Below, in pieces: positions 16,962 to 26,592 of a stretch of 32,000 nt of DNA. The notes below the pieces were generated by a model. That model had not been told where the DNA came from. It made no database searches and was given only the letters and a program-made list of their open reading frames with translations. Numbering within the stretch: position 1 is the stretch's first letter; each line of letters starts with the position of its first letter. Origin of the DNA: Planctomycetales bacterium (GTDB lineage Bacteria; 4484-113; JAFGCY01); contig CP060262.1 in the NCBI GenBank assembly GCA_022646745.1, forward strand, positions 930,001 to 962,000, given 5' to 3'. The position numbers and the translations under genes were made by a program.

Positions 16962-16997
16962 GGCGGGGCTGCCAAGGCAGTCCCGCCTTTTCTTTTT
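16962..16997 (+). terminator. intrinsic terminator (third box-associated hairpin plus T tract)
   Basis: GGCGGGGCTGCC..GGCAGTCCCGCC stem followed by TTTTCTTTTT. Confidence 0.6.
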
Positions 16998-16999
16998 GC

Positions 17000-17345
17000 C
17001 GCTTCACCCAAGGGCTCAGCGGTCTGACCCTGCGGCTGCGCATTCGCGCATCCGGGTCGGGTTGAAGATGCAGGTGGTTGGAAGATTCCTGGTGCAAGAG
17101 GAGCGGAACTTGTTTCGCTCCGGTTTGCAGACCGTCGAGTGCTTGCATGAGACGGCAATAGAATTCAGTCTGGCGCTGCGCTGGCGCATTCGCTGCCAGC
17201 GGATCGCGCTGAAGGTGCGGGAGGCCAGACCCGTGGTCTGGCAGGAAGCCAATCCCACGGATTGGCAACGGATTGCGGATAACAAATGCTCCGGCAGTCC
17301 ATGGGACTGCAGTCCTGTCAGGCCATGGGCCTGACCTCCTCGTCG
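17000..17345. repeat. mosaic intergenic repeat block (copy A)
   Basis: Contains GGCTCAGCGGTCTGACCCTGCGGCTGCGCATTCGCGCATCCGGGTCG, TGCAGACCGTCGAGTGCTTGCATGAGACGG (17126-17155), ..GCGCTGCGCTGGCGC..CTGCCAGCGG..CTGAAGGTGC and a REP-like unit (17220-17243). All have counterparts at 31425-31800. Confidence 0.8.
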
Positions 17346-17415
17346 CATTGTGCGTCCCGCATTTGCGCAGCTTAGTAACGCTGACGCGTTCCTGCGCTAC
17401 GCGCTCCATTCTGCC

Positions 17416-17464
17416 CATCCCCCATCCCGCATCCCGCATCCCCCATCCCGCATCCCCCATCCCT
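17416..17464. repeat. 7 tandem heptamers CATCCC(C/G/T); G-tracts on the minus strand
   Basis: Read directly: CATCCCC CATCCCG CATCCCG CATCCCC CATCCCG CATCCCC CATCCCT. The tract ends 17 nt before the tenA ATG. Confidence 0.9.
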
Positions 17465-17481
17465 CACCTACAATTCCCCGC

Positions 17482-18153
17482 ATGCCTTCCCTCTTCGAAA
17501 CACTGAAAGCCGGCAGCGGCCCGCTCTGGCAATCCGCCCAGTCCCATCCCTTCGTGGACGGGCTGGCCGACGGCAGCCTGCCGCGCGAGAAGTTCATCCA
17601 CTACCTGAAGCAGGACTATGTGTATCTCATCGGCTATGCGCAGGCCTGGGCCAGGGCCGCCGCCAAGGCACCTGACCTGACCCTGCTCACAGCGGCCAGT
17701 GGCCTGGTACATGACACGCTCGGAATGGAGATGGAGCTGCACCGTTCCTACTGTGAGCAGTTCGGCATCAGCCGCGACCAGCTGAACAGGGAGCAGGCCG
17801 GGCCGATCTGCCGGGCTTACGTGGACTTCTGCCTGGCCACTTCGAACGAGGGTGACTTCATCGACCTGCTGGTTGCCATGATCCCCTGCGGCGTGGGCTA
17901 CGCGGAAATCGGCACACGGCTGGCAACGCAACTCAGCGACGTACAGGAGCATCCATACCGGCAGTGGATCGAGACCTACGCCTCGGCTGAGTTCTGGGCC
18001 TATGCGGACTGGATGACAACGACGCTCGATGGCCTGTCAGATGAGATCGGACCGGCGCGCATCCCGCGCCTGCAGGCGCGCTTCGACCTCGGCTGCCGCT
18101 ATGAATGGATGTTCTGGGAGATGGGCTGGACGATGGGGGAGTGGCCCATCTGA
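17482..18153 (+). CDS. tenA: TenA/thiaminase-II family protein (aminopyrimidine aminohydrolase)
   Basis: LW......HPFV.GLADGSLP.EKF.HYLKQDYVYL..YA.A.A..A.KA, then CRAYVDF, IPC..GYAEIG and YA..EF are characteristic of TenA/PqqC-like proteins. The track start at 17350 would translate the heptamer repeat, so the Met at 17482 is preferred. Confidence 0.85.
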   Translation: MPSLFETLKAGSGPLWQSAQSHPFVDGLADGSLPREKFIHYLKQDYVYLIGYAQAWARAAAKAPDLTLLTAASGLVHDTLGMEMELHRSYCEQFGISRDQLNREQAGPICRAYVDFCLATSNEGDFIDLLVAMIPCGVGYAEIGTRLATQLSDVQEHPYRQWIETYASAEFWAYADWMTTTLDGLSDEIGPARIPRLQARFDLGCRYEWMFWEMGWTMGEWPI

Positions 18154-18302
18154 GTGGACAGTTGGCAGTGGGCAGTAGTCAGTTTGAGTTTGCAGAATCA
18201 GAATGAGAAGCAGCAACAGGTCCGAGGTTCAGGCAACAGCCTTCTGCTGATTCTGTTTCTCATTCTGCCAACAGACCCTGACAACTGCCTACTTTCCACT
18301 GA

Positions 18303-18803
18303 CTACTGATTACTGATCCACTCGTACAGTTCGCGTCGCGTGCGGAATACATGCTGTTCCACCTGCGGGTTGGCAGCGAGGATCTCCAGCGTGCGCCGGC
18401 GGCTGCGCTTTGGATAGTCCCAGACCCACTTCAGGAAGGGCAGGTCGAAGCGCTCGGGGCAGCCCTCGCCGCAGTCAGCGCGCTCCCGTCCGAGGTGAAT
18501 CCGTACACGCCTGAGTACCTGCCACATGCAGAACAGGCGCGGGAAGTCCAGCCAGACAACCATGTCGGCGCGTGCAATGCGCATTGGCAGGCTGCCGGTG
18601 TAGTTGCCATCGACAAGCCAGCGATCAGCCGCCACGATGGCGGCCTCCTGCCGCTCCCACTGCTCATCCGTAGGCTGTTGCCAGCCCGGACGCCAGAATT
18701 CGCGGTCAAGGTGAATGAGCGGCAGATTGAGCCTGCGCGCCAGCTCCACGGAAGCCGTGGACTTGCCGGAGCCGCAGTTGCCGATCACGAGTACGCGCTG
18801 CAT
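18303..18803 (-). CDS. P-loop NTPase, FlaR/topology-modulation/adenylate-kinase-like
   Basis: MQRVLVIGNCGSGKST (Walker A), ..IHLD..FW.PGW, WLVDGNY and VVWLD.P are typical of this family. The track N-terminal extension (to 18866) translates the purine-rich repeat and is rejected. Confidence 0.85.
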   Translation of the reverse strand: MQRVLVIGNCGSGKSTASVELARRLNLPLIHLDREFWRPGWQQPTDEQWERQEAAIVAADRWLVDGNYTGSLPMRIARADMVVWLDFPRLFCMWQVLRRVRIHLGRERADCGEGCPERFDLPFLKWVWDYPKRSRRRTLEILAANPQVEQHVFRTRRELYEWISNQ

Positions 18804-18820
18804 GGACATTGAGTTATTCC

Positions 18821-18995
18821 CAGGATCAGAATGAGAAGCAGAATGAGAATGAGCAGAAGAAGTCATCAGTCTGGAGTCTCAATTACCGGCAGGCTGCCTG
18901 CAAAATACTGCTGCTTCTGCTTCTCATCCTGCTTCTGTTTCTGTTTCTCATTCTGTTTCTGCTTCTGCTCTCAGCTCTCTGCTTTCTGCTCTCTG
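18821..18995. repeat. purine-rich AGCAGAAGCAGAATGAGAA-type low-complexity blocks forming a long imperfect palindrome
   Basis: The left arm (CAGAATGAGAAGCAGAATGAGAATGAGCAGAAG) is complementary in type to the right arm (CTTCTGCTTCTCATCCTGCTTCTGTTTCTGTTTCTCATTCTGTTTCTGCTTCTGC...). Related blocks lie at 7034-7090 and 18192-18269. Confidence 0.75.
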
Positions 18996-19006
18996 CACCC
19001 TCGTTG

Positions 19007-20215
19007 TCAGATCACGCGGCCGCTGGGCAGCGGTGCACCCTCGATCTTCAGCCTCACTTCCTGCACCGCCTGTTCACGCACCGGCAGGCGCCAGATCACG
19101 GCAATCACTGCGATCGCCGCGAACACCCAGCTGCCCATCCCGAGGGCCGCCGCTGCCAGAGCGACAACTGCCATGGCAGGCATCGCATAACCACAGATAC
19201 CGAGATTGAAGTGCCTGTCCCGCACGATGCACAGGGTGAGGAAGAATATCGCCATCGGCACCCCGAGCCACCAGGCGATGTCCGCCTGGCTGGCAGTGCC
19301 GTGGTGTTCGGACAGGTCAAGCTCGGCGGCGATCGCGGCCCCGGTCACGGCCAGCGAGCCGAAGATTAACAGGTGGCCGTAGCCCCAGATGAACACCGTG
19401 TTGAACTCGCGCTTGGGCAGGTGCTCGCGCTCCTCGAAGTACAGCCAGAACAGTGAGAACACTATCAGGAGCGCGGAGATCGCGGTGGATACAGGGGTCC
19501 AGCTCGGATGCTCGCCATACAGCTGGCCGAAGCCCATGCTGATTGCCAGCATGATCTCGCCGAGCGAGATGATCGTCAGCAGGCCGTAGCGCTCAATCAT
19601 GTGGTGGCGGTGGAAGGGCGTGTCCTTTGCCTTCTCGGCGAACATCGGCACACTGAATTCGACAAGGAAGCACACTGCGGCAAGGCCGTAGAACAGGGCG
19701 GGAGATGCATCGCGGGTGATGAAGTAGTAGGCGATCCAGCAGGCCTGGGCGAACATGATGCCACCGGCATAGCGCAGCGTCGTCAAGCGGTACTGCGGGT
19801 TGGCACTGGCCCGCAGCCACAGCGCAGCCATCCCGATGCGCATGATGCACCAGCCGAGCAGGCCCCAGCTGAAGTCATGGCTCTCGAAGATATGCCCCGC
19901 GCCGCCGGCGAACACCAGCTCTCCGCACATGATCAGCATCACGAGCAGGCGGTAGACCGGGCCGTCGTTGTCAAAGGCCGAGGCGAACCAGGTGAAGTTC
20001 ATCCAGGCCCACCAGATGCTGGTGAACAGGAAGATGAAGATCGGCAGGTTCTCCAGGCCATGGCCCTCGCTGATCGCATGGTGCAGGCCGGCGGTGGCGG
20101 CGGCGATCGCGATCACACTGACGAGATCGAAGAAAAGCTCAAGCTGGGTCGCAGGACGGTGCGACTCGTTCGGGTTGCGCGCCGGCAGCGGCAGGATCGG
20201 CTTGAATCGGCTCAT
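19007..20215 (-). CDS. ltrA: low-temperature-requirement LtrA-family membrane protein
   Basis: N-terminal signature ..ATQLELFFDLVSVIAIAAA followed by about 10 hydrophobic helices. Length is typical of LtrA. Confidence 0.85.
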   Translation of the reverse strand: MSRFKPILPLPARNPNESHRPATQLELFFDLVSVIAIAAATAGLHHAISEGHGLENLPIFIFLFTSIWWAWMNFTWFASAFDNDGPVYRLLVMLIMCGELVFAGGAGHIFESHDFSWGLLGWCIMRIGMAALWLRASANPQYRLTTLRYAGGIMFAQACWIAYYFITRDASPALFYGLAAVCFLVEFSVPMFAEKAKDTPFHRHHMIERYGLLTIISLGEIMLAISMGFGQLYGEHPSWTPVSTAISALLIVFSLFWLYFEEREHLPKREFNTVFIWGYGHLLIFGSLAVTGAAIAAELDLSEHHGTASQADIAWWLGVPMAIFFLTLCIVRDRHFNLGICGYAMPAMAVVALAAAALGMGSWVFAAIAVIAVIWRLPVREQAVQEVRLKIEGAPLPSGRVI

Positions 20216-20318
20216 GGATAGATTCTATGCCCTGCCGGGATTGGCAATGGGAGCGGGATTCCCCATTGATCAGCCAGTGATTGCACCAGGCAATTTTCCA
20301 GGGATTCCGGAATCCAGC

Positions 20319-20347
20319 TTGCCAATCCGGGGAAGTACGGGTAAGAT
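20319..20347 (+). promoter_or_regulatory. sigma70-type promoter P1 (TTGCCA - 17 nt - TAAGAT)
   Basis: -35 at 20319-20324 and -10 at 20342-20347. The predicted start (about 20354-20356) coincides with the 5' strand of the module-1 closing stem. A 14-bp perfect palindrome GGATTCCGGAATCC (20302-20315) lies just upstream. Confidence 0.6.
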
Positions 20348-20354
20348 CTCCATC

Positions 20355-20445
20355 TGCCAGCGGCGGAGGTGAGGATTACATCGGTGGCGTTGCTTCGGCA
20401 ACAGCGGGTTCGAAACCCGCAGACCCTCCCTGACAATCCCTGGCA
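20355..20445 (+). ncRNA. Y-RNA-like module 1 (short form with T-arm mimic)
   Basis: Closing stem UGCCAG/CUGGCA. GGAGG/CCUCC pairing. Shared UUACAUCGG motif. GUUGC-UUCG-GCAAC hairpin. tRNA T-arm mimic GCGGG-UUCGAAA-CCCGC. Its 5' and 3' strands align with module 3. Confidence 0.6.
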
Positions 20446-20462
20446 TGATTCAGGCTTCCACA

Positions 20463-20546
20463 GGCCCGGGCGGTGGGTGGCTGGTTTACATCGTCTTGAA
20501 AACGCAAATCACCAGCCCAGCAAATCCCCCGGGCCTTTCCGTTTTC
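20463..20546 (+). ncRNA. Y-RNA-like module 2 (simple stem-loop form, terminator-like 3' end)
   Basis: Outer stem GGCCCGGG/CCCGGGCC. Inner stem GGCUGGU/ACCAGCC. UUACAUCG motif in the apical region. Followed by UUUCCGUUUUC. Confidence 0.55.
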
Positions 20547-20635
20547 TGTGAATCAGCAGCATGCGGCAGCATTGCCAGACTGAGCGGTACCCATTAATTG
20601 CACCAGGCATTTTCCGGGAATTCCCGGATTCCACC

Positions 20636-20664
20636 TTGCCAATTGCTAAAAGCGCGGTTACTAT
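20636..20664 (+). promoter_or_regulatory. sigma70-type promoter P2 (TTGCCA - 17 nt - TACTAT), a duplicate of the P1 cassette
   Basis: -35 at 20636-20641 and -10 at 20659-20664. The upstream block ATTGCACCAGGCA(A)TTTTCC..GGA(A)TTCC..CTTGCCAAT is shared with P1. A 14-bp palindrome CCGGGAATTCCCGG lies at 20614-20627. Confidence 0.6.
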
Positions 20665-20670
20665 TCCCGT

Positions 20671-20804
20671 CCGCCAGCGGTGGCGGGGGGACTACATCGG
20701 GATATCCTGAGGTCGCGGGTTCAAATCCCGCCGCTTCCCAGGAAGCGTAGCTCAGTGGACCAGAGCACAGGACACTGCATCACCCCCCGGCGATTCCCTG
20801 GCGA
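20671..20804 (+). ncRNA. yrlA: YrlA-like Y RNA with circularly permuted tRNA-like domain
   Basis: Closing stems CGCCAG/CUGGCG and GGGGGG/CCCCCC. CUACAUCGG motif. Element order is: UCCUG, T-arm GCGGG-UUCAAAU-CCCGC (20715-20731), acceptor-like stem CGCUUCC/GGAAGCG closed by a short loop, D-arm GCUC-AGUGGACCA-GAGC (20750-20766), then CAGGA, which pairs back to UCCUG. Confidence 0.7.
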
Positions 20805-20814
20805 AAGCATATGT

Positions 20815-20887
20815 GGCCTGGGCGGCGGGTGGCTGGTTTACATCGCCTGTGAACCGAAATTCACCAGCCCGCTTGTACCCCCGGGCT
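20815..20887 (+). ncRNA. Y-RNA-like module 4 (paralog of module 2)
   Basis: Outer stem GGCCUGGG/CCCGGGCU (two G-U pairs). Inner stem GGCUGGU/ACCAGCC. Same UUACAUCG motif and the same 25-nt apical spacing as module 2. Confidence 0.55.
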
Positions 20888-20903
20888 GCGGGACAGTAAA
20901 ATC

Positions 20904-20966
20904 GGGCGGTGGGCAGCCGGAATACATCGGACAGTCACTTCGACATCCGGCTGCGTTATCCCCCCA
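20904..20966 (+). ncRNA. Y-RNA-like module 5 in the rsr 5' leader
   Basis: The 5' strand GGGCGGUGGGCAGCCGGAAUACAUCG aligns with modules 2 and 4. Perfect 9-bp stem GCAGCCGGA/UCCGGCUGC. A C6 tract ends 4 nt before the GGGAGA SD of rsr. Confidence 0.5.
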
Positions 20967-20980
20967 AACGGGAGACAGTG

Positions 20981-22495
20981 ATGGTTCTGTTCAGCAGGGG
21001 CAGGAAGGCCCCGAAGAAGCCGGACACCCATAACCTGGCGGGTGGCCGTGCGTACAGCCTCAGTCCGCAGCGCGAGCTGCTGGACATCGCGCTCACAAGC
21101 AAGCTGCAACGCCAGTTCTACCGCGAGCCGGATGAGACGATGCGGCGTGTGCGCAGGCTCGTGAAGGAAGCCGGGCCGGAGTTCGCCGCGCGCTGTGCAC
21201 TGTACACCCGCCACAGGATGGGCCTGCGCAGCATCAGCCACCTGCTGGCCGCCGAGGTCAGCCGCCGGGCATCCGGTGAGCAGTGGCTGTCGGACTTCTA
21301 CCGCCTGGTTGCCAGGCGGCCGGACGACATGCGAGAGATCATCGCCTGCATCATGGGTGGCCCGGAATTCGGTGAAGGTGTTGCCAGGAAGAGCGGCAAG
21401 GGACGCAAGCGCAACGGCCATGCATTGCCGAATTCGCTGAAGCGCGGATTCGCAAGGCGCTTCGAGCAGTTCGACGAGTACCAGCTCGGTGCTTACCGCG
21501 GTGAGGGTCAGGGCGTGTCGCTGGTTGACGTGATGCGGCTCGTGCACCCGCGTGAGACGGAGGCGATCCGCAAGCTCAAGGACGGCACGCTGCGCAGCCA
21601 GAAGCAGGACGCGAAACTGACGAGGAGCGGGCAGCTGGCTGACAACGCCGAGTCCGCCGCGCAGCTGAAGCGCGAGGTCTGGCATGCCGAGATCGAGCGG
21701 ATGGGCTACAACGCGCTCGTGATGAACGCGCGCGGAATCCTTGCCAGCGCCCCGGAGCTGAAGGGCCGTCTGTGCGAGCGGATCGAGGATGCTGAAGCCG
21801 TGCGGCGCAGCCTGATCCAGCCGCTGCAGATCTACCGCGCCTACCGCGAACTGGAGGACCGCCAGCTGAGGCTGAGCCTGAGCAGGGCGATCGATCTGGC
21901 ATGCGCCAATGTGCCGCGCTTCGAGGGCCGCACCCTGGTGGCATTCGACGAAAGCGGCAGCATGACCGCATGGACGCATGGTGACATGAAGATCCCGGCT
22001 ATCGAGTATGCATCGCTGTTCGCGGCGATCCTCGCCAGGTCGCAGGATGCGGACGTGATCAGCTTTGACACGACTGCGCGCTACCGGAAGTATGATCTTG
22101 GCAACACCACGCTGAGCATCGCTGAAGACTGGCATGTGGCGCGTGGCGGAGGCACTGACATGGGCACGATCTTCAGCAGGATGCGCGGGAAGTATGACCG
22201 CGTGATCGTGCTGACAGACATGCAGAGCTGGTATGGTGTCGATCCGGAGAAGGCGGCAGCGCTGTACGAGAAGAAGCAGCGCAGGCCGCTCAAGATCTAC
22301 AGCTTTGACCTGACCGGCTACGGCACGGCCCTGTTCCGCCCGGGCAGCATCCAGATGCTGTCCGGTGTCAGCTTCGGTGTGTTTGACACCATCGCCAGGC
22401 TGGACCAGGGCGGGGATGTGCTGATGGATGAAGTGAACGCGGTGCGCTTCACCGATGAATGGGTGCAGAGCGTGCGCGACAGCCACGGAAAGTGA
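20981..22495 (+). CDS. rsr: Rsr, Ro60-related protein (TROVE domain plus vWA domain)
   Basis: N-terminus NLAGG.AY.L.....L.......L...FY......T......L. .......FAARCALY.R..MGLRS..H.L.A is TROVE-like. The C-terminal vWA has MIDAS DESGSM and later GGGTDM ... VLTDMQSW. The start at 20981 is preferred (GGGAGA SD) because the track start at 20909 lies inside module 5. Confidence 0.9.
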   Translation: MVLFSRGRKAPKKPDTHNLAGGRAYSLSPQRELLDIALTSKLQRQFYREPDETMRRVRRLVKEAGPEFAARCALYTRHRMGLRSISHLLAAEVSRRASGEQWLSDFYRLVARRPDDMREIIACIMGGPEFGEGVARKSGKGRKRNGHALPNSLKRGFARRFEQFDEYQLGAYRGEGQGVSLVDVMRLVHPRETEAIRKLKDGTLRSQKQDAKLTRSGQLADNAESAAQLKREVWHAEIERMGYNALVMNARGILASAPELKGRLCERIEDAEAVRRSLIQPLQIYRAYRELEDRQLRLSLSRAIDLACANVPRFEGRTLVAFDESGSMTAWTHGDMKIPAIEYASLFAAILARSQDADVISFDTTARYRKYDLGNTTLSIAEDWHVARGGGTDMGTIFSRMRGKYDRVIVLTDMQSWYGVDPEKAAALYEKKQRRPLKIYSFDLTGYGTALFRPGSIQMLSGVSFGVFDTIARLDQGGDVLMDEVNAVRFTDEWVQSVRDSHGK

Positions 22496-22542
22496 CAACA
22501 TGGGCGGGGCAGGGAGGCCCCGCTGCACGGGATGTCGTGGAT

Positions 22543-22715
22543 GGAGGCCAGGCCGTTGGCTTGGCAGCTGCCAGGCTCATAGCCTGGCCTCCGTTGTATT
22601 GCTTGCGTTGGGCCTCCAATCGCCACCTATCTCGCTTCAGAGCCCTCGCAGCTTCCACACGCGCTGGCGTGACTTCGCACCGTGGCTCCCATGCCAGGCT
22701 TACAGCCTGGCCTCC
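22543..22715. repeat. three REP-like units of the same family between rsr and emrB
   Basis: GGAGGCCAGGCCGTTGGCTTGGCA (22543-22566, inverted orientation). TGCCAGGCTCATAGCCTGGCCTCC (22569-22592). TGCCAGGCTTACAGCCTGGCCTCC (22692-22715). Confidence 0.75.
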
Positions 22716-22738
22716 CCTGCTGCCGAAGTAGGAAGCTC

Positions 22739-24334
22739 CTAGTGGGCGGCGGGGGCCGGTGCACCCTTCCTGCGGTTTGCGGCATGGCCCTTGCCAAGGA
22801 TCAGCAGCAGCGGCAGGGCGCAGACGAACAGGCTGGCAACGAACAGGTAGACATCCTCGAATGACAGCACCATCGCCTGCTGCTGCACCAGCCCCGTGAC
22901 GACCTTCAGCGCAGCCGTCTGGCTCTGCAGCATGTCATAGCCGCGGCCCTGCAGGTAGCCCTGGATGCCGCTGAGGAACTGCAGCGAGGCCGGGTCATAG
23001 GCCCCGATGCCCTCCGCCAGGCGCTGGAAGTGGAAGTCGAAGCGCCGGTCCAGCACGAAGGTCAGCACCGCGATGCCGAGGCTGCCGCCGATCTGGCGGG
23101 TCAGGTTGTAGAGCCCGGCCGCGCTGCTCACATCATCCTTCGGGATGGTGCCAAGCGTGGCAACGCTGAGCGGAATGAACATCAGCGGCAGGCCCATGCC
23201 GCGCCACATCAGCGGCCAGAAGAAGAACTGCGCGGTGGTCTGGCTGTTCACATGCGACAGCCTGAGGATCATACCGATCAGGATCAGGCTGCCGATGCCG
23301 ACGAGGATGCGCGCATCGAAGCGGCTCAGCAGGATGCCGGCCAGCGGCATGAAGATCACCATGATCAGCGAGCCGGGGATCATCAATTCGCCGGTCTGGG
23401 TGGCGGTGAAGTGCAGGATGTTCTGCGTGAACACGGGGATCACGAAGGTGGTGCCGTACAGGCCGACGCCGAGCACGATGCTGTACAGGCTGCCGGCCCA
23501 CAGCGGCTTGTACTTCAGCACGCGCAGGTTGACAGCGGGGTTCGGGATGCGCAGCTCATGGCGCACGAAGGCGAACAGCGCCACGACGCAGAGCACCGCC
23601 AGCGTGACGATGTAGCCACTCTGGAACCAGTCGTACTCACGGCCCTGCTCCAGCAGCACCTGCATGCTGCCGAGTCCCGCTGCCAGCAGCAGGATGCCCA
23701 GCAGGTCGACGCGGCCGGTTGCCCTGCGGGGCTTGTCCGGCACGAACATCATTGCCATCAGCACGGCGAGGATGCCGACGGGCAGGTTGATGAAGAAGAT
23801 CCAGCGCCAGCCCATCATGTCAGTCAGGTAGCCGCCCAGCGTCGGGCCGAAGGCCGGGCCGACCACCACGCCGATGCCGAACAACGCCTGGGCCATGCCC
23901 TGCTGGTGCGGGGGGAAGGTCTCGAACAGGATGGACTGCGCCTTCGGCAGCAGCCCGCCGCCGAACAGGCCCTGCATGATGCGAGCGAACACGAGCATCC
24001 CGAGCGATGTTGACAGCCCGCACAGCACGCTGCTGGCAACGAAGGCCACGAGCGTGAAGAGGTAGTAGTTACGCTGGCCGAAGCGGTCGGACAGCCAGGC
24101 CCCGAGCGGGATGATCACCACGTTGGCCATCGCGTAGCCGGTGATCACCCAGCCGATCTGGCTGAGCGTGGCTCCGAGGCTGCTTTGCATGTGCGGCAGT
24201 GCCACGTTGACGATGCTGACGTCGATCACCTCCATCAGCGCCCCGAGGCTGACCGTCAGTGCCACGGCCCATTTGTACCAGGAACTCTCGCGGATGCGCT
24301 GCGCGCGAGCCCCGCCTGCGAGCACTGCCATCAA
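22739..24334 (-). CDS. emrB: MFS multidrug efflux transporter, DHA2/EmrB-QacA family (14-TM type)
   Basis: WKWAVALTVSLGALMEVIDVSIVNVALPHMQSSLGA, G.LSDRFGQR and the length and hydrophobicity are typical of EmrB. It overlaps the emrA stop by 4 nt. Confidence 0.9.
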   Translation of the reverse strand: MMAVLAGGARAQRIRESSWYKWAVALTVSLGALMEVIDVSIVNVALPHMQSSLGATLSQIGWVITGYAMANVVIIPLGAWLSDRFGQRNYYLFTLVAFVASSVLCGLSTSLGMLVFARIMQGLFGGGLLPKAQSILFETFPPHQQGMAQALFGIGVVVGPAFGPTLGGYLTDMMGWRWIFFINLPVGILAVLMAMMFVPDKPRRATGRVDLLGILLLAAGLGSMQVLLEQGREYDWFQSGYIVTLAVLCVVALFAFVRHELRIPNPAVNLRVLKYKPLWAGSLYSIVLGVGLYGTTFVIPVFTQNILHFTATQTGELMIPGSLIMVIFMPLAGILLSRFDARILVGIGSLILIGMILRLSHVNSQTTAQFFFWPLMWRGMGLPLMFIPLSVATLGTIPKDDVSSAAGLYNLTRQIGGSLGIAVLTFVLDRRFDFHFQRLAEGIGAYDPASLQFLSGIQGYLQGRGYDMLQSQTAALKVVTGLVQQQAMVLSFEDVYLFVASLFVCALPLLLILGKGHAANRRKGAPAPAAH

Positions 24335-25605
24335 CCGGCCCTGACGTGCACCACGACGGACATGCCCGGTGCCAGCATTTCGCGCAGGCCCTCGTCAATC
24401 AGCGCGTCGTCAAGCCGGATGCGCACGGGGATGCGCTGCACGACCTTGGTGAAGTTGCCGGTGGCATTCTCCGGCGGGATCAGGCTGAAGGTGGCCCCGC
24501 TGGCCGGGGAGAAACTGTCAACGACGCCGCTGAGCGTCACGCCCGGCAGGGCGTCCACCTCGATCTCGGCTGCCTGCTGCGGATGCAGGCGGCCCAGCTG
24601 GGTCTCCTTGAAGTTGGCCTCGATCCAGATCTCATCGGGCACGATTGCCAGCAGGTTCTGGCCGGGGCTGACCTGCTGCCCGGGCTCGACATTGCGCCGT
24701 CCGACACGGCCGCTGCGCACGGCATGGATCTCACAATGCGAGAGGTCCAGCCTGGCCTGAGCGACCGCAGCCTCATGCACCTCGACCGTTGCCAGTGCGG
24801 TCTCGTACTGCGCCTGGTTGTAGCCGACCTGCCGCTGGGCGGCAACTGCTGACTTGCGGCCGCCGTCACTGCTGGCCTGCAGGGCCGTAGCCTGCTCGAT
24901 GCCTGCCTGTGCCTGGGCGATGCGCCCCTCAGCACTCTGCAGCTCATCATGAGCCGCGTCGACACGGGCCTGGGCGGTGTCACGGGCGGCCGTTGCGTCG
25001 TCAAGTTCCTGGCGCGAGACGATGTTGGCAGCGAACAGGCTGTCCAGCCGACCAAGGTGCGTCTGCGCCTGGTCAAGGGCTGCCTGCAGCTCGCGGATGC
25101 GGGCCTGGGCGGCGTCACGGGCGGCTGTGGCCTGCTCCAGCGTGGCCTGAGCGCCGCTGATCGAAGCACTGGCCTGCTGCTGTGCTCCGTCAGCGCTGCT
25201 GTCCATCGCGCCGGCCTGGGCCGCGCTCACGCCGACCATCGCCTGTGCCGCATCGGACTGCTGCCGGGCGACGTGCAGCTGTGCCTCGGCCTGCTGCAGG
25301 CGGATCTCGAACGGTGCCGGATCCAGCCGCACCAGCAGCTGCCCTTCCTCCACCACCTCATTCTCGCCGACCAGCACCTCCAGCACCTGCCCGCTGAGCT
25401 GGGTGCTGACCGGCAACACGTTGGTGTTGATCTGTGCGTTGTCAGTCGAGACGTACAGCTGCTGGTGCTGCCACCACTGCCAGCCGTAGACCAGGGCCCC
25501 GCCGACGACCAGCATGGGCAGCAGGAAACGCAGCGGCGAGGGACGGCCGTTGCCATTCCCGTTGCCCGCCTTCGGTTCCGGCTGCTTCTGTTCGTTACTC
25601 ATCAT
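24331..25605 (-). CDS. emrA: HlyD-family membrane fusion protein (EmrA-like)
   Basis: N-terminal TM helix, then Y.STDNAQI..NV..V..Q.SG.V..V.V.EN..V..GQLLV.LDP. A long Ala/Gln coiled coil follows. C-terminal ..NFTKVVQRIPVRI... is the EmrA signature. The Met at 25605 is preferred over the 25677 extension, which would overlap padR deeply. Confidence 0.9.
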   Translation of the reverse strand: MMSNEQKQPEPKAGNGNGNGRPSPLRFLLPMLVVGGALVYGWQWWQHQQLYVSTDNAQINTNVLPVSTQLSGQVLEVLVGENEVVEEGQLLVRLDPAPFEIRLQQAEAQLHVARQQSDAAQAMVGVSAAQAGAMDSSADGAQQQASASISGAQATLEQATAARDAAQARIRELQAALDQAQTHLGRLDSLFAANIVSRQELDDATAARDTAQARVDAAHDELQSAEGRIAQAQAGIEQATALQASSDGGRKSAVAAQRQVGYNQAQYETALATVEVHEAAVAQARLDLSHCEIHAVRSGRVGRRNVEPGQQVSPGQNLLAIVPDEIWIEANFKETQLGRLHPQQAAEIEVDALPGVTLSGVVDSFSPASGATFSLIPPENATGNFTKVVQRIPVRIRLDDALIDEGLREMLAPGMSVVVHVRAG

Positions 25606-26119
25606 GTGCTCCGTTGCTTTCCGATTCCAGCTGCGCGTCCGTTTCCGCCAGCAGGCCCTCGAGCCATTCCAGCTCAAGCGCCAGCTTGCGCATCACATAG
25701 CCGCGCATGCTCTGCTGCATCGGTTGGGTGGCCTTGTCGAAGCTGTAGTTCATCCGCTCACGCAGGGCGTCAACGCGCTGCTGGATCAGCTGGCGGCGCT
25801 GGGCCGGATCGAGGCGGTCGCTGAACCACATGCGGGTCATGAAGCGCGCCTGGGCATTGACCCAGCTGTCGTTGGCTTCCTCGGTCATCAGCTCCAGCCA
25901 GTAAGCGCGACCGGCCTCGGTGATTTCATAGACCGTGCGGCGCCCGCCGCTGCCACTCTTGCGGACCAGGCCGCGCTCCGTGAGGCGCTTCAGCAGGGGG
26001 TAGATCGCGCCGAAGTTGGCGCTCAGCGCGGTCCCCATGTAGTGCTCGAGCCACTCCCTGAGCGCATAACCGTGCATCGGCTCACGCAGGAGTGCCCCAA
26101 GTGCGGCAAGTTCCAACAT
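25595..26119 (-). CDS. PadR family transcriptional regulator
   Basis: LGALL.EPMHGYAL.E.L........S.GAIYP.LKRL.ERGLV......GGRRTVYEITEAGR is the PadR winged-helix signature. First gene of padR-emrA-emrB. Confidence 0.9.
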   Translation of the reverse strand: MLELAALGALLREPMHGYALREWLEHYMGTALSANFGAIYPLLKRLTERGLVRKSGSGGRRTVYEITEAGRAYWLELMTEEANDSWVNAQARFMTRMWFSDRLDPAQRRQLIQQRVDALRERMNYSFDKATQPMQQSMRGYVMRKLALELEWLEGLLAETDAQLESESNGAHDE

Positions 26120-26136
26120 ATATCAGATTGATATAT
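26118..26136. promoter_or_regulatory. perfect inverted repeat ATATATCA-GAT-TGATATAT at the padR start (candidate PadR operator)
   Basis: 8-bp arms with a 3-bp spacer. AT-rich in a GC-rich background. Overlaps the padR ATG (26117-26119) and lies between it and a GAGGAG element. Confidence 0.5.
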
Positions 26137-26205
26137 TACTCCTCGCCGCTGATTATTCTCATTGGAGGGAAATTTGCTGCAGATCAGCAGGATTCCCGGT
26201 CCAGC

Positions 26206-26592
26206 TCACTTGCCATCCTTTCCCAGCCCGCGGGCCAGCATGGCCACCTGCAGCTCCAGGCGCTTGATTTCGCGGGCGGTGGCGTTGCGCTCGATCTCCA
26301 GCCAGAACCACAGCTTGAGCATTCCCACCGCCATCATGCCGAAGGCGGCCAGCATCGCCCAGCTGATCAGCTCCTTGGTGTTCTCCGCAGCGATGTAGCG
26401 GGTGATGCACCAGACAGTGGCCCCGAAGATCGCGAACATCACGATGCTGGCAAAGATGCTCAGCAACCTGTTTCGCCCGCGGAAGGTGTCGAGCACCATT
26501 TCGTCAATGCGCTGCTCGCCGCTGAGCTTCTCCCAGTCCGCGCTGTACTCCTGATCCAGTGCCTGCTTCAGCCTGTTGTCAAAGTCTTCCAT
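26206..26592 (-). CDS. two-TM membrane protein coupled to the ECF sigma factor (possible anti-sigma-like partner)
   Basis: The ATG lies 1 nt after the sigma-factor stop (TGAcATG). Two hydrophobic helices. C-terminal coiled segment REIKRLELQVAML. No ZAS or RskA motif seen. Confidence 0.6.
   Translation of the reverse strand: MEDFDNRLKQALDQEYSADWEKLSGEQRIDEMVLDTFRGRNRLLSIFASIVMFAIFGATVWCITRYIAAENTKELISWAMLAAFGMMAVGMLKLWFWLEIERNATAREIKRLELQVAMLARGLGKDGK

What the first reader, a model, noticed from the sequence alone, without database searches (positions are those of the whole stretch)
20270..20983. Rsr (Ro60) gene preceded by a tandem array of five paralogous Y-RNA-like modules
The sequence shows five stem modules on the rsr strand, all sharing a (U/C/A)UACAUCG(G) motif on the 5' side of an apical region.
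- Modules 1 and 3 align along both strands: GCCAGCGGYGG..GGA.UACAUCGG on the 5' side and CCYCCC...UCCCUGGC on the 3' side.
- Modules 2, 4 and 5 align as GGGCGGYGGG(Y/C)(G/A)GC(U/C)GG(U/A)(U/A)UACAUCG on the 5' side, with a matching 3' strand.
- The inner stem GGCUGGU/ACCAGCC of modules 2 and 4 echoes the GGCUGGU 5' end of metazoan Y RNAs.

Established knowledge: Ro60/Rsr binds Y RNAs through a stem formed by their 5' and 3' ends, and bacterial Y RNAs (YrlA/YrlB) are usually encoded next to rsr.

What looks unusual is the number of modules, their two structural classes, and their organisation as two promoter-plus-two-module units followed by a leader module. That layout suggests local duplication and a multi-Y-RNA repertoire. 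There is no rtcB/rtcR partner in the window.
Basis: partly seen in the sequence, partly recalled or inferred. Interest (0 to 1): 0.85.

Follow-up and report, generated by a model that had tools for sequence, protein, structure and literature searches.

The report
Five Y-RNA-like genes before rsr
Just upstream of a gene for a Ro60-like RNA-binding protein lie five small structured RNA genes of the kind that bind this protein (Y RNAs); they are real and conserved, and such arrays prove common in related bacteria, with the last copy usually sitting against the protein's ribosome-binding site.

Summary
Window 20355-20969 (+) holds five modules with one architecture:
- a terminal helix, a bulged C and a GG:CC step;
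- a YGG loop and an inner helix;
- an invariant UACAUCG, with a 3' strand ending ..AU-CC-helix.

The composite pattern occurs 5 times against 0.02 expected. The ORF at 20981-22495 is a divergent Ro60/Rsr (TROVE + vWA, Ro60 fold).

M3 is a YrlA-type tRNA mimic with T, acceptor-like and D arms (Rfam YrlA 42.9 bits, below the cutoff of 69). M1 keeps only a T arm. M2, M4 and M5 are short hairpins.

A covariance model built from the modules finds 200 matches in 86 rsr loci. All lie on the rsr strand and 198 lie upstream of rsr, with strong covariation.

- Five modules is not unusual. 14 of 63 other loci have at least 5, and the maximum is 7.
- The GGCUGGU "echo" sits in a freely covarying helix.

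Two things appear new. This clade carries a lineage-specific switch in the presumed Rsr-binding motif, shared by all its paralogues. A module ending 8-42 nt before the rsr start codon recurs in more than 20 loci across phyla, which suggests autoregulation or obligatory co-transcription. Expression and Rsr binding remain untested.

The parts
20279..20318 (+). Conserved block upstream of promoter 1 (ATTGCACCAGGCAATTTTCCAGGGATTCCGGAATCC), repeated before promoter 2. It contains palindromes and may be a regulator or UP site.
   Evidence: (D5) and 75: ATTGCACCAGGCA is identical in both copies, whereas the -35/-10 spacers differ.
20319..20347 (+). Promoter-like site P1 (TTGCCA-17-TAAGAT). The predicted transcript start falls at about 20354-20355, the first base of M1.
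   Evidence: position relative to M1 read.
20355..20445 (+). Module M1, a Y-RNA-like RNA with a Rsr-type stem (UGCCAG-C-GG-CGG ... AAU-CC-CUGGCA) and UUACAUCGG. It has a V-like hairpin at 20389-20402 and a T-arm mimic at 20404-20420 (GCGGGUUCGAAACCCGC), but no D arm.
   Evidence: R1 22.3 bits; R2 38.1 bits, E 2.5e-5; T-arm hit.
20463..20535 (+). Module M2, a short Y-RNA-like hairpin: GGCCCGGG-C-GG-UGG..GGCUGGU-UUACAUCGUCUUGAAAACG..ACCAGCC..AAU-CC-CCCGGGCC.
   Evidence: 84.6 bits; 75.9 bits.
20536..20549 (+). U-rich tract (UUUCCGUUUUCUGU) directly after the G+C-rich terminal helix of M2. It is a likely end of transcription unit 1.
   Evidence: Read. The simple terminator scan does not call it, so this is inference.
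20594..20635 (+). Second copy of the conserved promoter-upstream block.
20636..20664 (+). Promoter-like site P2 (TTGCCA-17-TACTAT). The predicted transcript start falls at about 20671, at the base of M3.
20672..20803 (+). Module M3, a YrlA-type Y RNA with stem CGCCAG-C-GG-UGG..GGGGGG and CUACAUCGG. It has a T arm at 20715-20731, an acceptor-like hairpin at 20732-20747 and a D arm at 20748-20766. The 3' strand is CCCCCC..AUU-CC-CUGGCG.
   Evidence: Rfam YrlA, full model, 42.9 bits, E 5e-8 locally; gathering cutoff 69; z -3.2; R2 26.2 bits.
20815..20887 (+). Module M4, a short Y-RNA-like hairpin. It is a paralogue of M2 (84% identity over 56 nt).
   Evidence: D2; 75.4 bits; 62.6 bits.
20904..20964 (+). 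Module M5, a short Y-RNA-like hairpin in the rsr leader: GGG-C-GG-UGG-GCAGCCGGA-AUACAUCGG..UCCGGCUGC-GUUAU-CC-CCC. Its terminal helix has only 3 bp, and it ends 5 nt before the Shine-Dalgarno sequence.
   Evidence: z -3.0; 60.7 bits; 52.4 bits. The two strain differences (20924, 20948) keep the fold.
20970..20975 (+). Shine-Dalgarno sequence GGGAGA, 5 nt before the ATG.
   Evidence: Read. It is left unpaired in the fold.
20981..22495 (+). rsr, encoding a divergent Ro60/TROVE protein of 504 aa with a vWA domain and a MIDAS-type DxSxS motif.
   Evidence: TROVE 4.5e-11; vWA_Ro60 9.6e-7; Foldseek top 13 hits all Ro60/Rsr, TM 0.58-0.68. The start at 20981 is supported by the homologues' M-x-(R/L)-F N-termini.

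Best explanation
The 700 nt upstream of rsr encode five Y-RNA-like non-coding RNAs, the RNA partners of the Ro60-type protein Rsr, in two transcription units.

Unit 1 runs from promoter P1 through M1 and M2 and probably ends at the U-rich tract after M2. Unit 2 runs from promoter P2 through M3, M4 and M5 into rsr, so Y RNA and Rsr synthesis are coupled.

Each module pairs its 5' and 3' ends into a helix that carries the presumed Rsr-binding site. This site is G-C pairs, a bulged C and a GG:CC step followed by YGG on the 5' strand and ..AU on the 3' strand. An inner helix then presents an invariant UACAUCG and a variable effector end:
- M3 has a full permuted tRNA mimic (T, acceptor-like and D arms).
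- M1 has a T arm only.
- M2, M4 and M5 have a small hairpin.

By analogy with D. radiodurans Yrn1 and S. Typhimurium YrlA, the RNAs would be cut out of their precursors. They would bind the outer face of the Rsr ring, gate its cavity, and tether it to different partners such as PNPase or tRNA-binding proteins.

Shown here: the sequence anatomy, conservation, covariation, strand and position linkage to rsr, and the Ro60 fold of the protein. Inferred: transcription, processing, Rsr binding and effector tethering.

The five-copy state arose by tandem duplication of a [promoter-long-short] unit. The single-unit state survives in L004.
For: 1. Specific and non-random: the composite motif occurs 5 times against 0.02 expected, all here and all on +. 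Model R1 hits nothing else in the 32 kb.
2. M3 matches Rfam YrlA over the full model (42.9 bits, E 5e-8 locally and 1.8e-6 window-wide). It is the only Rfam hit at E<=0.01 apart from its own T arm.
3. The same architecture is found upstream of rsr in L004 (59% Rsr identity; 3 modules) and L085 (44%; 3 modules).
4. Model R2 gives 200 hits in 507 kb across 86 sources. All 200 are on the rsr strand and 198 are upstream of rsr. All five window modules are hit.
5. Covariation on 150 hits: 88.8% of cells are paired, against 60.5% in shuffles and 39-58% in slid controls. There are 850 double-change cells against 259. RNAalifold on an independent MAFFT alignment recovers both helices and the bulge, with 8 of 16 pairs compensatory.
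6. The pair next to the bulge is A-U in 135 modules and G-C in this clade. Every module of the clade in that alignment (4 of the window's 5, and 3 each from L004 and L085) carries C-GG-YGG where other lineages have C/U-AG-UGA; M3, which is not in the alignment, shows the same motif in its sequence. This is as expected if all paralogues track one protein's recognition surface.
7. The motif resembles the published Ro-binding 5' strand (GNCGAAN0-1G, GGUCCGA) and the conserved YUAY of YrlA (PMC4201824).
8. The protein has a Ro60 fold.
9. The promoter-like sites end 7-8 nt before M1 and M3. No promoter-like site lies between M3 and rsr.
Against: - There are no expression data and no binding data.
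- None of the modules reaches Rfam's YrlA gathering score, and the short modules have no Rfam family at all.
- The Rsr-site motif is a variant (GGCGGYGG) of the published GNCGAAN0-1G, not an exact match.
- Single-sequence folding z-scores for M1, M2 and M4 are only -1.3 to -1.6.
- M5 has a 3-bp terminal helix, weaker than its L004 counterpart (6 bp).
- The protein is far from characterised Rsr: the NCBIfam Rsr equivalog gives 28.7 bits against a cutoff of 900, so transfer of the PNPase-tether mechanism is by analogy only.
- The near-identity of the array among strains is uninformative, because the whole left flank is identical too.
- The covariation alignments are model-fitted and therefore lean towards the structure.
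Confidence: 0.78

Rival explanations
1. M5, and perhaps the whole M3-M4-M5 leader, acts mainly in cis as a Y-RNA mimic in the rsr mRNA. Free Rsr would bind it and block the adjacent ribosome-binding site, giving translational autoregulation by molecular mimicry. This is not exclusive of the main explanation.
For: - M5 ends 5 nt before the Shine-Dalgarno sequence and 16 nt before the ATG.
- L004's third module ends 15 nt before the ATG.
- A module ending 8-42 nt before the rsr start codon is seen in 23 loci from Verrucomicrobiota, Saprospiraceae, Dehalococcoidia, Thermoanaerobaculia and others. The Shine-Dalgarno sequence, where recognisable, lies in that gap.
- These last modules nearly always lack tRNA-like arms.
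- The RNA alone leaves the Shine-Dalgarno sequence and ATG unpaired, so any control would need a bound protein.
- M5 keeps every family-invariant nucleotide.
Against: - Close spacing may simply reflect a compact precursor from which Y RNAs are cut, as in M. smegmatis where YrlA and YrlB lie upstream of rsr (PMC4201824).
- About two thirds of loci with modules show a larger gap.
- L085 has about 170 nt between its last module and the likely start.
- No experiment bears on this.
Confidence: 0.3
2. The modules are not separated. The polycistronic RNA serves as a multivalent scaffold that loads several Rsr rings at once, forming a higher-order RNP.
For: - Linkers between modules are very short (8-17 nt).
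- Arrays are the rule in relatives.
- Thermus phage phiLo Ro60 forms higher-order and dimeric RNPs with its two upstream Yrl RNAs (PMC12135203).
Against: - Characterised bacterial Y RNAs are processed to single units (PMC4201824).
- The terminal helices pair the 5' and 3' ends of each module, as in mature Y RNAs.
- Nothing here tests processing.
Confidence: 0.1
3. The region is a decayed tRNA gene cluster or tRNA-derived pseudogenes with no functional tie to Rsr.
For: - T-arm and D-arm sequences are present in M1 and M3.
- Related loci carry true tRNA arrays just upstream.
Against: - ARAGORN finds no tRNA in the window.
- The arm order is permuted (T, acceptor-like, D) as in YrlA, and is enclosed in a non-tRNA stem that covaries.
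- Three of the five modules have no tRNA element at all.
- The non-tRNA motifs (bulged C, UACAUCG) are the most conserved parts.
Confidence: 0.03
4. The modules are chance G+C-rich hairpins or a generic repetitive or mobile element (REP/MITE-like).
For: The genome is G+C rich, and single-sequence z-scores for three modules are modest.
Against: - The pattern occurs 5 times against 0.02 expected.
- There are no copies elsewhere in the 32 kb or on the opposite strand.
- 200 of 200 family hits are on the rsr strand across 86 sources.
- Covariation is strong.
Confidence: 0.02

Closest known systems
Mycobacterium smegmatis YrlA and YrlB (Chen et al. 2014, PMC4201824)
   Same: - The Y RNAs are encoded upstream of rsr on the same strand, processed from one precursor, and not under RtcR.
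- One RNA is a full tRNA mimic (T, acceptor-like and D arms) and another carries only a T arm.
- YUAY is conserved at the start of the apical domain.
   Different: - Two RNAs there, five here.
- The Ro-site motif here is GGCGGYGG rather than GNCGAAN0-1G.
- No 7-bp acceptor stem or conserved CCA feature is seen here.
- Three of the five modules have no tRNA element.
- The last module abuts the ribosome-binding site.
Deinococcus radiodurans rsr locus: Yrn1, Yrn2 and RNAs a, b, d (Chen et al. 2000, 2013, 2014)
   Same: - Five small RNAs are encoded upstream of rsr, several with T arms.
- They are made as a polycistronic precursor.
- Both strands of the Ro-binding helix are recognisable, including a bulged helix.
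   Different: Here all five share it.
- A tRNA gene lies inside the D. radiodurans cluster; there is none in this window.
- The tRNA-like arm order differs (Yrn1 vs YrlA type).
Salmonella Typhimurium rsr-yrlBA-rtcBA operon; Rfam YrlA RF02553
   Same: - One long tRNA-mimic Y RNA plus a short hairpin Y RNA are co-transcribed with rsr.
- M3 aligns to the whole YrlA model.
   Different: - The Y RNAs lie downstream of rsr there and upstream here.
- That operon is sigma-54/RtcR controlled and linked to rtcBA. There is no rtc gene here, and the promoters are sigma-70-like.
- All modules here score below the Rfam gathering cutoff (M3 42.9 vs 69).
Thermus phage phiLo Ro60 with Yrl1 and Yrl2 (PMC12135203)
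   Same: - It is the closest solved protein by sequence (9KOP/9L5Y, E 1.8e-8, near full length).
- Two Y-RNA-like genes lie upstream of the Ro60 gene.
   Different: - The context is a phage.
- The RNAs carry a CGAA motif.
- There are two RNAs only.
Translational operators that mimic the protein's RNA ligand (E. coli thrS tRNA-like operator; ribosomal-protein leaders). This is a functional analogy for M5 only.
   Same: A copy of the protein's cognate RNA structure sits in its own mRNA leader, next to the ribosome-binding site.
   Different: No binding or repression has been shown here. M5 may instead simply be a Y RNA cut from the precursor.

Membership tests
Bacterial Y RNA (functional class: Rsr/Ro60-bound ncRNA) | Encoded close to rsr (within 4 kb) on the same strand | tested here: met
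   All five modules lie within 630 nt upstream of rsr on the + strand. Across the family, 200 of 200 hits are on the rsr strand.
Bacterial Y RNA (functional class: Rsr/Ro60-bound ncRNA) | [quoted passage not shown] | tested here: met
   Folds; covariation. The bulge column is C in 120 and U in 29 of 150 sequences.
Bacterial Y RNA (functional class: Rsr/Ro60-bound ncRNA) | Conserved Ro-binding 5'-strand motif (GNCGAAN0-1G in YrlA/YrlB; GGUCCGA in metazoa and D. radiodurans) | tested here: inconclusive
   The window has GGCGGYGG, and its wider family has GGCAGUGA. The topology is similar (G-C pairs, bulged C, purine-rich strand), but it is not the published consensus.
Bacterial Y RNA (functional class: Rsr/Ro60-bound ncRNA) | Stable transcript bound by Rsr in vivo | not testable with these tools
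   No transcriptome or binding data are available.
YrlA (Rfam RF02553) | Score at or above the Rfam gathering threshold (69 bits) | tested here: not met
   M3 scores 42.9 bits and the other modules give no hit. Homologous long modules in relatives score 30-50.5 bits.
YrlA (Rfam RF02553) | Permuted tRNA-like domain: T arm, then a closed acceptor-like stem, then the UA-D arm | tested here: met
   Met for M3 only: T arm 20715-20731, acceptor-like hairpin 20732-20747, D arm 20748-20766. M1 has a T arm only. M2, M4 and M5 have none.
YrlA (Rfam RF02553) | Conserved YUAY at the junction of the stem and the apical domain | tested here: met
   All five modules have (U/C/A)UAC. U27, C29 and C32 of UACUUCG are present in 149-150 of 150 family members.
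YrlA (Rfam RF02553) | tRNA-type modifications (pseudouridine 55, dihydrouridine) and the tRNA L-shape | not testable with these tools
   Needs biochemistry or structure determination.
YrlB-type short Y RNA | [quoted passage not shown] | tested here: inconclusive
   M2, M4 and M5 are long hairpins. Their apical regions are about 25 nt and not notably pyrimidine-rich. No curated model exists to test against.
Metazoan-type Y RNA (Rfam Y_RNA) | Match to the Rfam model, with GGCUGGUCCGA at the 5' end forming the Ro helix | tested here: not met
   No Y_RNA hit at E<=10 in 20150-21050. GGCUGGU in M2 and M4 lies in the inner, freely covarying helix.
Ro60/Rsr protein | TROVE HEAT-repeat ring plus vWA domain with MIDAS | tested here: met
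   Pfam TROVE 43 bits (cutoff 23) and vWA_Ro60 29.3 bits (cutoff 27.7). The DxSxS motif is invariant (D323, S325, S327). The AF2 model has pLDDT 81.6, and the Foldseek top 13 hits are all Ro60/Rsr.
Ro60/Rsr protein | NCBIfam Rsr equivalog NF041674 (cutoff 900 bits) | tested here: not met
   28.7 bits. This is a divergent subfamily, closest by sequence to phage phiLo Ro60.
rsr-yrlBA-rtcBA RNA repair operon | rtcB/rtcA adjacent, with RtcR and a sigma-54 promoter | tested here: not met
   No RtcB, RtcA or RtcR domain in the 23 ORFs scanned. The neighbours are ltrA and an MFS efflux operon. The promoters look sigma-70-like.
Autoregulatory leader by ligand mimicry (for M5) | Cognate RNA motif in the protein's own mRNA, adjacent to the ribosome-binding site | tested here: met
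   M5 ends 5 nt before the Shine-Dalgarno sequence. The same placement occurs in 23 loci.
Autoregulatory leader by ligand mimicry (for M5) | The protein binds the leader and represses its own translation | not testable with these tools
   Needs reporter fusions and toeprinting.

The most novel reading that the evidence does not exclude
The module that abuts the rsr ribosome-binding site (M5 here, with counterparts ending 8-42 nt before the start codon in more than 20 loci from several phyla) may be an autoregulatory operator. In this reading Rsr binds a Y-RNA mimic in its own mRNA leader and blocks translation, and the free Y RNAs made from the same array compete for Rsr. The array would then set the Rsr:Y RNA ratio by a titration circuit. 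That would be the first known feedback control of a Ro60 protein, and a new use of Y-RNA structure as a cis-regulatory element.
Probability: 0.3. Interest if true: 0.75.

Novelty: new variant of a known kind. Interest (0 to 1): 0.55.

Why it matters
Y RNAs are the obligate partners of Ro60, a conserved RNA-quality-control protein and a human autoantigen. In bacteria they have been studied in only three species, and the stated rule is "at least two per species".

This locus and its roughly 70 relatives show four things:
- A large Rsr subfamily (Planctomycetota-labelled MAGs, Verrucomicrobiota, Saprospiraceae, Chloroflexota and others) carries arrays of up to seven Y-RNA-like genes, none of which reached Rfam's curated threshold in the loci scanned.
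- These RNAs share an invariant UAC(U/A)UCG whether or not they carry a tRNA mimic. This points to a recognition element independent of the tRNA-like fold.
- The presumed protein-binding step switches from A-U to G-C in all paralogues of one lineage at once, which offers a natural specificity-swap experiment.
- The last module usually sits against the rsr ribosome-binding site, which gives a directly testable hypothesis for how Ro60 levels are matched to Y RNA levels.

A cultured relative with the same layout (Prosthecobacter fluviatilis KACC 12649, locus L079) makes these tests feasible.

Tried and rejected
1. Near-identity of the array between the window and three 98%-Rsr strains (2 differences in 765 nt) as evidence of selection. 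Rejected: the whole left flank (17350-20215) has 0 differences, while rsr and everything to its right differ by 3-5%. The pattern is a mosaic or recombination boundary.
2. Rfam at gathering thresholds finds nothing in the window. Only the E-value scans find YrlA, at M3.
3. More clade members: the metagenome scan only re-found L085, and a profile protein search added no new members. The contigs for P0004 and P0005 have no retrievable DNA. The genome-collection scan returned only relatives at 35-41% identity, none with the exact window motif.
4. GGCUGGU as a metazoan Y-RNA relic. Rejected: it sits in the inner helix, which covaries.
5. An encoded CCA in the acceptor-like loop of M3 (CCAG) as a sign of RNase P/CCA-type maturation. 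Not conserved: 5 of 45 T+D modules.
6. Intrinsic sequestration of the Shine-Dalgarno sequence by M5. Not seen in folds of the leader.
7. A sigma-54/RtcR-type promoter: there is no TGGCAC-N5-TTGC match by eye in the repeated upstream block, and no rtcR in the window.
8. MAFFT alignment A6 of five short modules was structurally out of register and was not used. A5 was used instead.
9. Two reviews (PMC10870794, PMC6047535) and the supplementary tables of Chen et al. 2014 could not be read. Whether large arrays have been tabulated before therefore remains uncertain.

Full report
**What is there**

Window 20216-20980 is the intergenic region between a divergently transcribed ltrA gene (19007-20215, minus strand; Pfam LtrA 1.8e-75) and an ORF at 20981-22495. 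That ORF carries the TROVE and Ro60-vWA domains.

The protein is a divergent Ro60:
- The NCBIfam Rsr equivalog scores only 28.7 bits against a cutoff of 900.
- Its best solved relative by sequence is the Ro60 of Thermus phage phiLo (E 1.8e-8, nearly full length), followed by D. radiodurans Rsr.
- An AlphaFold model (pLDDT 81.6) matches only Ro60/Rsr structures in its top 13 Foldseek hits (TM 0.58-0.68).
- The MIDAS-type DxSxS motif is invariant among 25 homologues.

A PilT gene 6 kb away is 100% identical to a protein of an NCBI "MAG: Planctomycetales bacterium", so the window probably comes from that uncultured lineage.

All five modules are on the rsr strand and share one plan. From 5' to 3' it reads:
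- a terminal helix of 3-8 bp;
- a bulged C;
- a two-pair GG:CC step;
- YGG;
- an inner helix of 6-9 bp;
- (U/C/A)UACAUCG;
- a variable apical part;
- the returning inner helix;
- 5-8 unpaired bases, usually ending AU;
- CC and the returning terminal helix.

The composite pattern GCGGYGG-N3-20-TACATCG occurs five times in 32 kb, only here, against 0.02 expected.

Each ends 7-8 nt before the first paired base of M1 or M3. Each is preceded by a roughly 40-nt block that is far better conserved between the two copies than the -35/-10 spacer.

M2's G+C-rich terminal helix is followed by UUUCCGUUUUCUGU. M4's is not. Together these points give two units: P1-M1-M2-(stop) and P2-M3-M4-M5-rsr. The transcription model is inference from sequence.

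M3 contains a permuted tRNA mimic:
- T arm GCGGGUUCAAAUCCCGC at 20715-20731;
- a closed 6-bp acceptor-like hairpin at 20732-20747;
- UA followed by the D arm GCUCAGUGGACCAGAGC at 20748-20766.

It aligns to the whole Rfam YrlA model (42.9 bits, E 5e-8; gathering cutoff 69). This is the only Rfam hit in the window at E<=0.01, apart from its own T arm.

M1 has a V-like hairpin and a T arm (20404-20420) but no D arm, like M. smegmatis YrlB or D. radiodurans RNAs a and b (PMC4201824). M2, M4 and M5 have no tRNA element. There are therefore three classes, not two. ARAGORN finds no tRNA in the window.

**Comparative evidence**

The Rsr clade is small. Beyond three near-identical strains (L001-L003), the nearest homologues are 59% (L004) and 44% (L085) identical.
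- L004 has a terminator and a promoter, then a YrlA-type module, a short module, and a second short module ending 15 nt before the ATG. This is the window's layout without the duplication.
- L085 has three modules, one with a T arm.

A covariance model of six short modules (R1) hits only the rsr-upstream region in the window. It also finds L085's second module, which was not in the seed.

Iterating once (R2) over 86 sources (507 kb, both strands) gives 200 hits at E<=0.1. All 200 are on the rsr strand and 198 are upstream of rsr. All five window modules are among them, at 75.9, 62.6, 52.4, 38.1 and 26.2 bits.

On 150 aligned hits, 88.8% of cells pair, against 60.5% in column shuffles and 39-58% when partners are slid. 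There are 850 double-change cells against 259. These alignments are model-fitted. However, RNAalifold on an independent MAFFT alignment recovers the same two helices and the bulge, with 8 of 16 pairs compensatory.

**Why the stem is probably the Rsr site**

Family-wide, the invariant or near-invariant positions are not in the helices. They flank the bulge (GG-C/U-AG-UGA on the 5' strand, UUU-CU-CC on the 3' strand) and form the UACUUCG after the inner helix.

This resembles the published Ro-contact strand: GNCGAAN0-1G in YrlA/YrlB, GGUCCGA in Xenopus, and protected G7 G8 C9 G11 A12 in D. radiodurans Yrn1. It also resembles the conserved YUAY of YrlA.

In the window's clade the pair next to the bulge is G-C instead of A-U, and UGA is YGG. 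Every module of the clade in the 150-sequence alignment (4 from the window, 3 each from L004 and L085) shows this, whatever its class; M3, which is not among those 150, carries the same C-GG-UGG and CC step in its sequence. A concerted change in all paralogues of a genome is what a shared protein-recognition surface predicts. It is still inference; no binding was tested.

First, the number of modules is not unusual in this subfamily. Of 63 other loci with at least 1.5 kb upstream, 21 have at least 4 modules and 14 have at least 5, with a maximum of 7 in L036. The cultured Prosthecobacter fluviatilis has five.

The literature already records five small RNAs upstream of D. radiodurans rsr, a YrlA-YrlB precursor upstream of M. 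smegmatis rsr, and two Yrl RNAs upstream of phage phiLo Ro60 (PMC4201824; PMC12135203). I found no paper describing arrays of this size. However, two reviews and the supplementary tables of Chen et al. 2014 were not readable.

Second, GGCUGGU lies in the inner helix, which covaries freely among sister modules. It is not homologous to the metazoan 5' end.

Third, the near-identity of the array among strains says nothing about selection. The window and L001 differ at 0 positions from 17350 to 20215, at 2 positions in the array (both in M5, both structure-compatible), and by 3-5% from rsr onward. That is a mosaic boundary.

**The leader module**

M5 ends 5 nt before the Shine-Dalgarno sequence GGGAGA and 16 nt before the ATG. 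No promoter-like site lies between P2 and rsr, so the rsr mRNA must begin with M3-M4-M5.

The same placement, with the last module ending 8-42 nt before the start codon, occurs in 23 loci from several phyla. The Shine-Dalgarno sequence, where recognisable, lies in the gap. These last modules nearly always lack tRNA-like arms.

Folding leaves the Shine-Dalgarno sequence and ATG unpaired, so the RNA alone would not occlude them. Two readings fit:
- a compact precursor from which Y RNAs are excised (precedent: M. smegmatis);
- a Y-RNA mimic that lets Rsr repress its own translation, with free Y RNAs as competitors.

I rate the second at about 0.3. It is the most novel reading the data allow, and it is directly testable.

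**Verdict**

This is a real, conserved, rsr-linked array of five Y-RNA-like genes. It is a new variant of a known kind rather than a new kind.

Three things deserve follow-up:
- a large Y-RNA-like family, missed by Rfam's threshold in the loci scanned, with an invariant UAC(U/A)UCG;
- the lineage-wide switch in the presumed Rsr site;
- the recurrent placement of a module against the rsr ribosome-binding site.

Expression, processing, Rsr binding and effector tethering are all inferred by analogy with D. radiodurans, S. Typhimurium and M. smegmatis.

Noticed in passing
window 22543-22715: The 243-nt gap between the convergent rsr and MFS genes holds two copies of a 24-nt hairpin, TGCCAGGCT-NNN-AGCCTGGCCTCC (22569-22592 and 22692-22715), plus a partly complementary arm at 22543-22567. 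There are no other copies in the window. They may be terminators or a small repeat family. Model R2 does not hit them.
   Followed up: partly
window 20235-20247, 20279-20331, 20594-20643: Operator-like repeats surround both Y-RNA promoters. ATTGCACCAGGCA is identical in both copies, next to the palindromes GGATTCCGGAATCC and CCGGGAATTCCCGG. TTGCCAATCC occurs three times, once inverted next to the ltrA start. L004 and L085 have different palindromes at their promoters (ATCTATCTAGATAGA; GCAACATGTTGC). The regulator is unknown.
   Followed up: partly
window 16981-26496 versus L001: Divergence between two strains is mosaic. There are 0 differences across 17350-20215, 2 in the Y-RNA array, and then 3-5% from rsr through the efflux operon. 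The break falls near 20924-20980, which suggests recombination or a chimeric assembly at the rsr locus.
   Followed up: partly
L079 1089-1493 and L066 501-915 (Prosthecobacter loci): Full-length matches to Rfam GOLLD RNA just below the gathering score (143.4 and 146.6 bits; cutoff 150; E about 1e-38). They lie among tRNA genes immediately upstream of the Y-RNA-like array and rsr. A GOLLD-tRNA-Y RNA-Ro60 neighbourhood may bear on GOLLD's unknown function.
   Followed up: partly
L033, L058, L059, L062, L076, L077, L079, L080, L088, L089, L006: Many rsr loci of this subfamily carry arrays of 3-10 or more tRNA genes on the rsr strand next to the Y-like modules. The window has no tRNA gene at all.
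   Followed up: partly
L033 1665-1800; L080 543-678; L059 2196-2348: Some Y-like modules enclose a sequence that Rfam scores as a near-complete tRNA (35-49 bits, above the tRNA cutoff) inside the Y-type stem. These look like intermediates between tRNA and YrlA-type mimics.
   Followed up: no
A8 alignment (150 modules from 86 sources): UACUUCG directly after the inner helix is essentially invariant (U27 and C29 in 150/150, C32 in 149/150) in modules with and without tRNA-like arms. In short modules it is often followed by UCUGNNAAACG. Its reader (Rsr itself or a partner) is unknown.
   Followed up: partly
window 20909-20980: The rsr reading frame is open upstream to a GTG at 20909, which would put M5 inside the coding sequence. 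Homologue N-termini (M-x-R/L-F...) and the Shine-Dalgarno sequence support ATG 20981 instead.
   Followed up: yes
window 20732-20747: The acceptor-like hairpin of M3 has the loop CCAG, so a cut 5' of the G would leave a ...CCA 3' end. [quoted passage not shown] It is not conserved: 5 of 45 homologous modules.
   Followed up: yes
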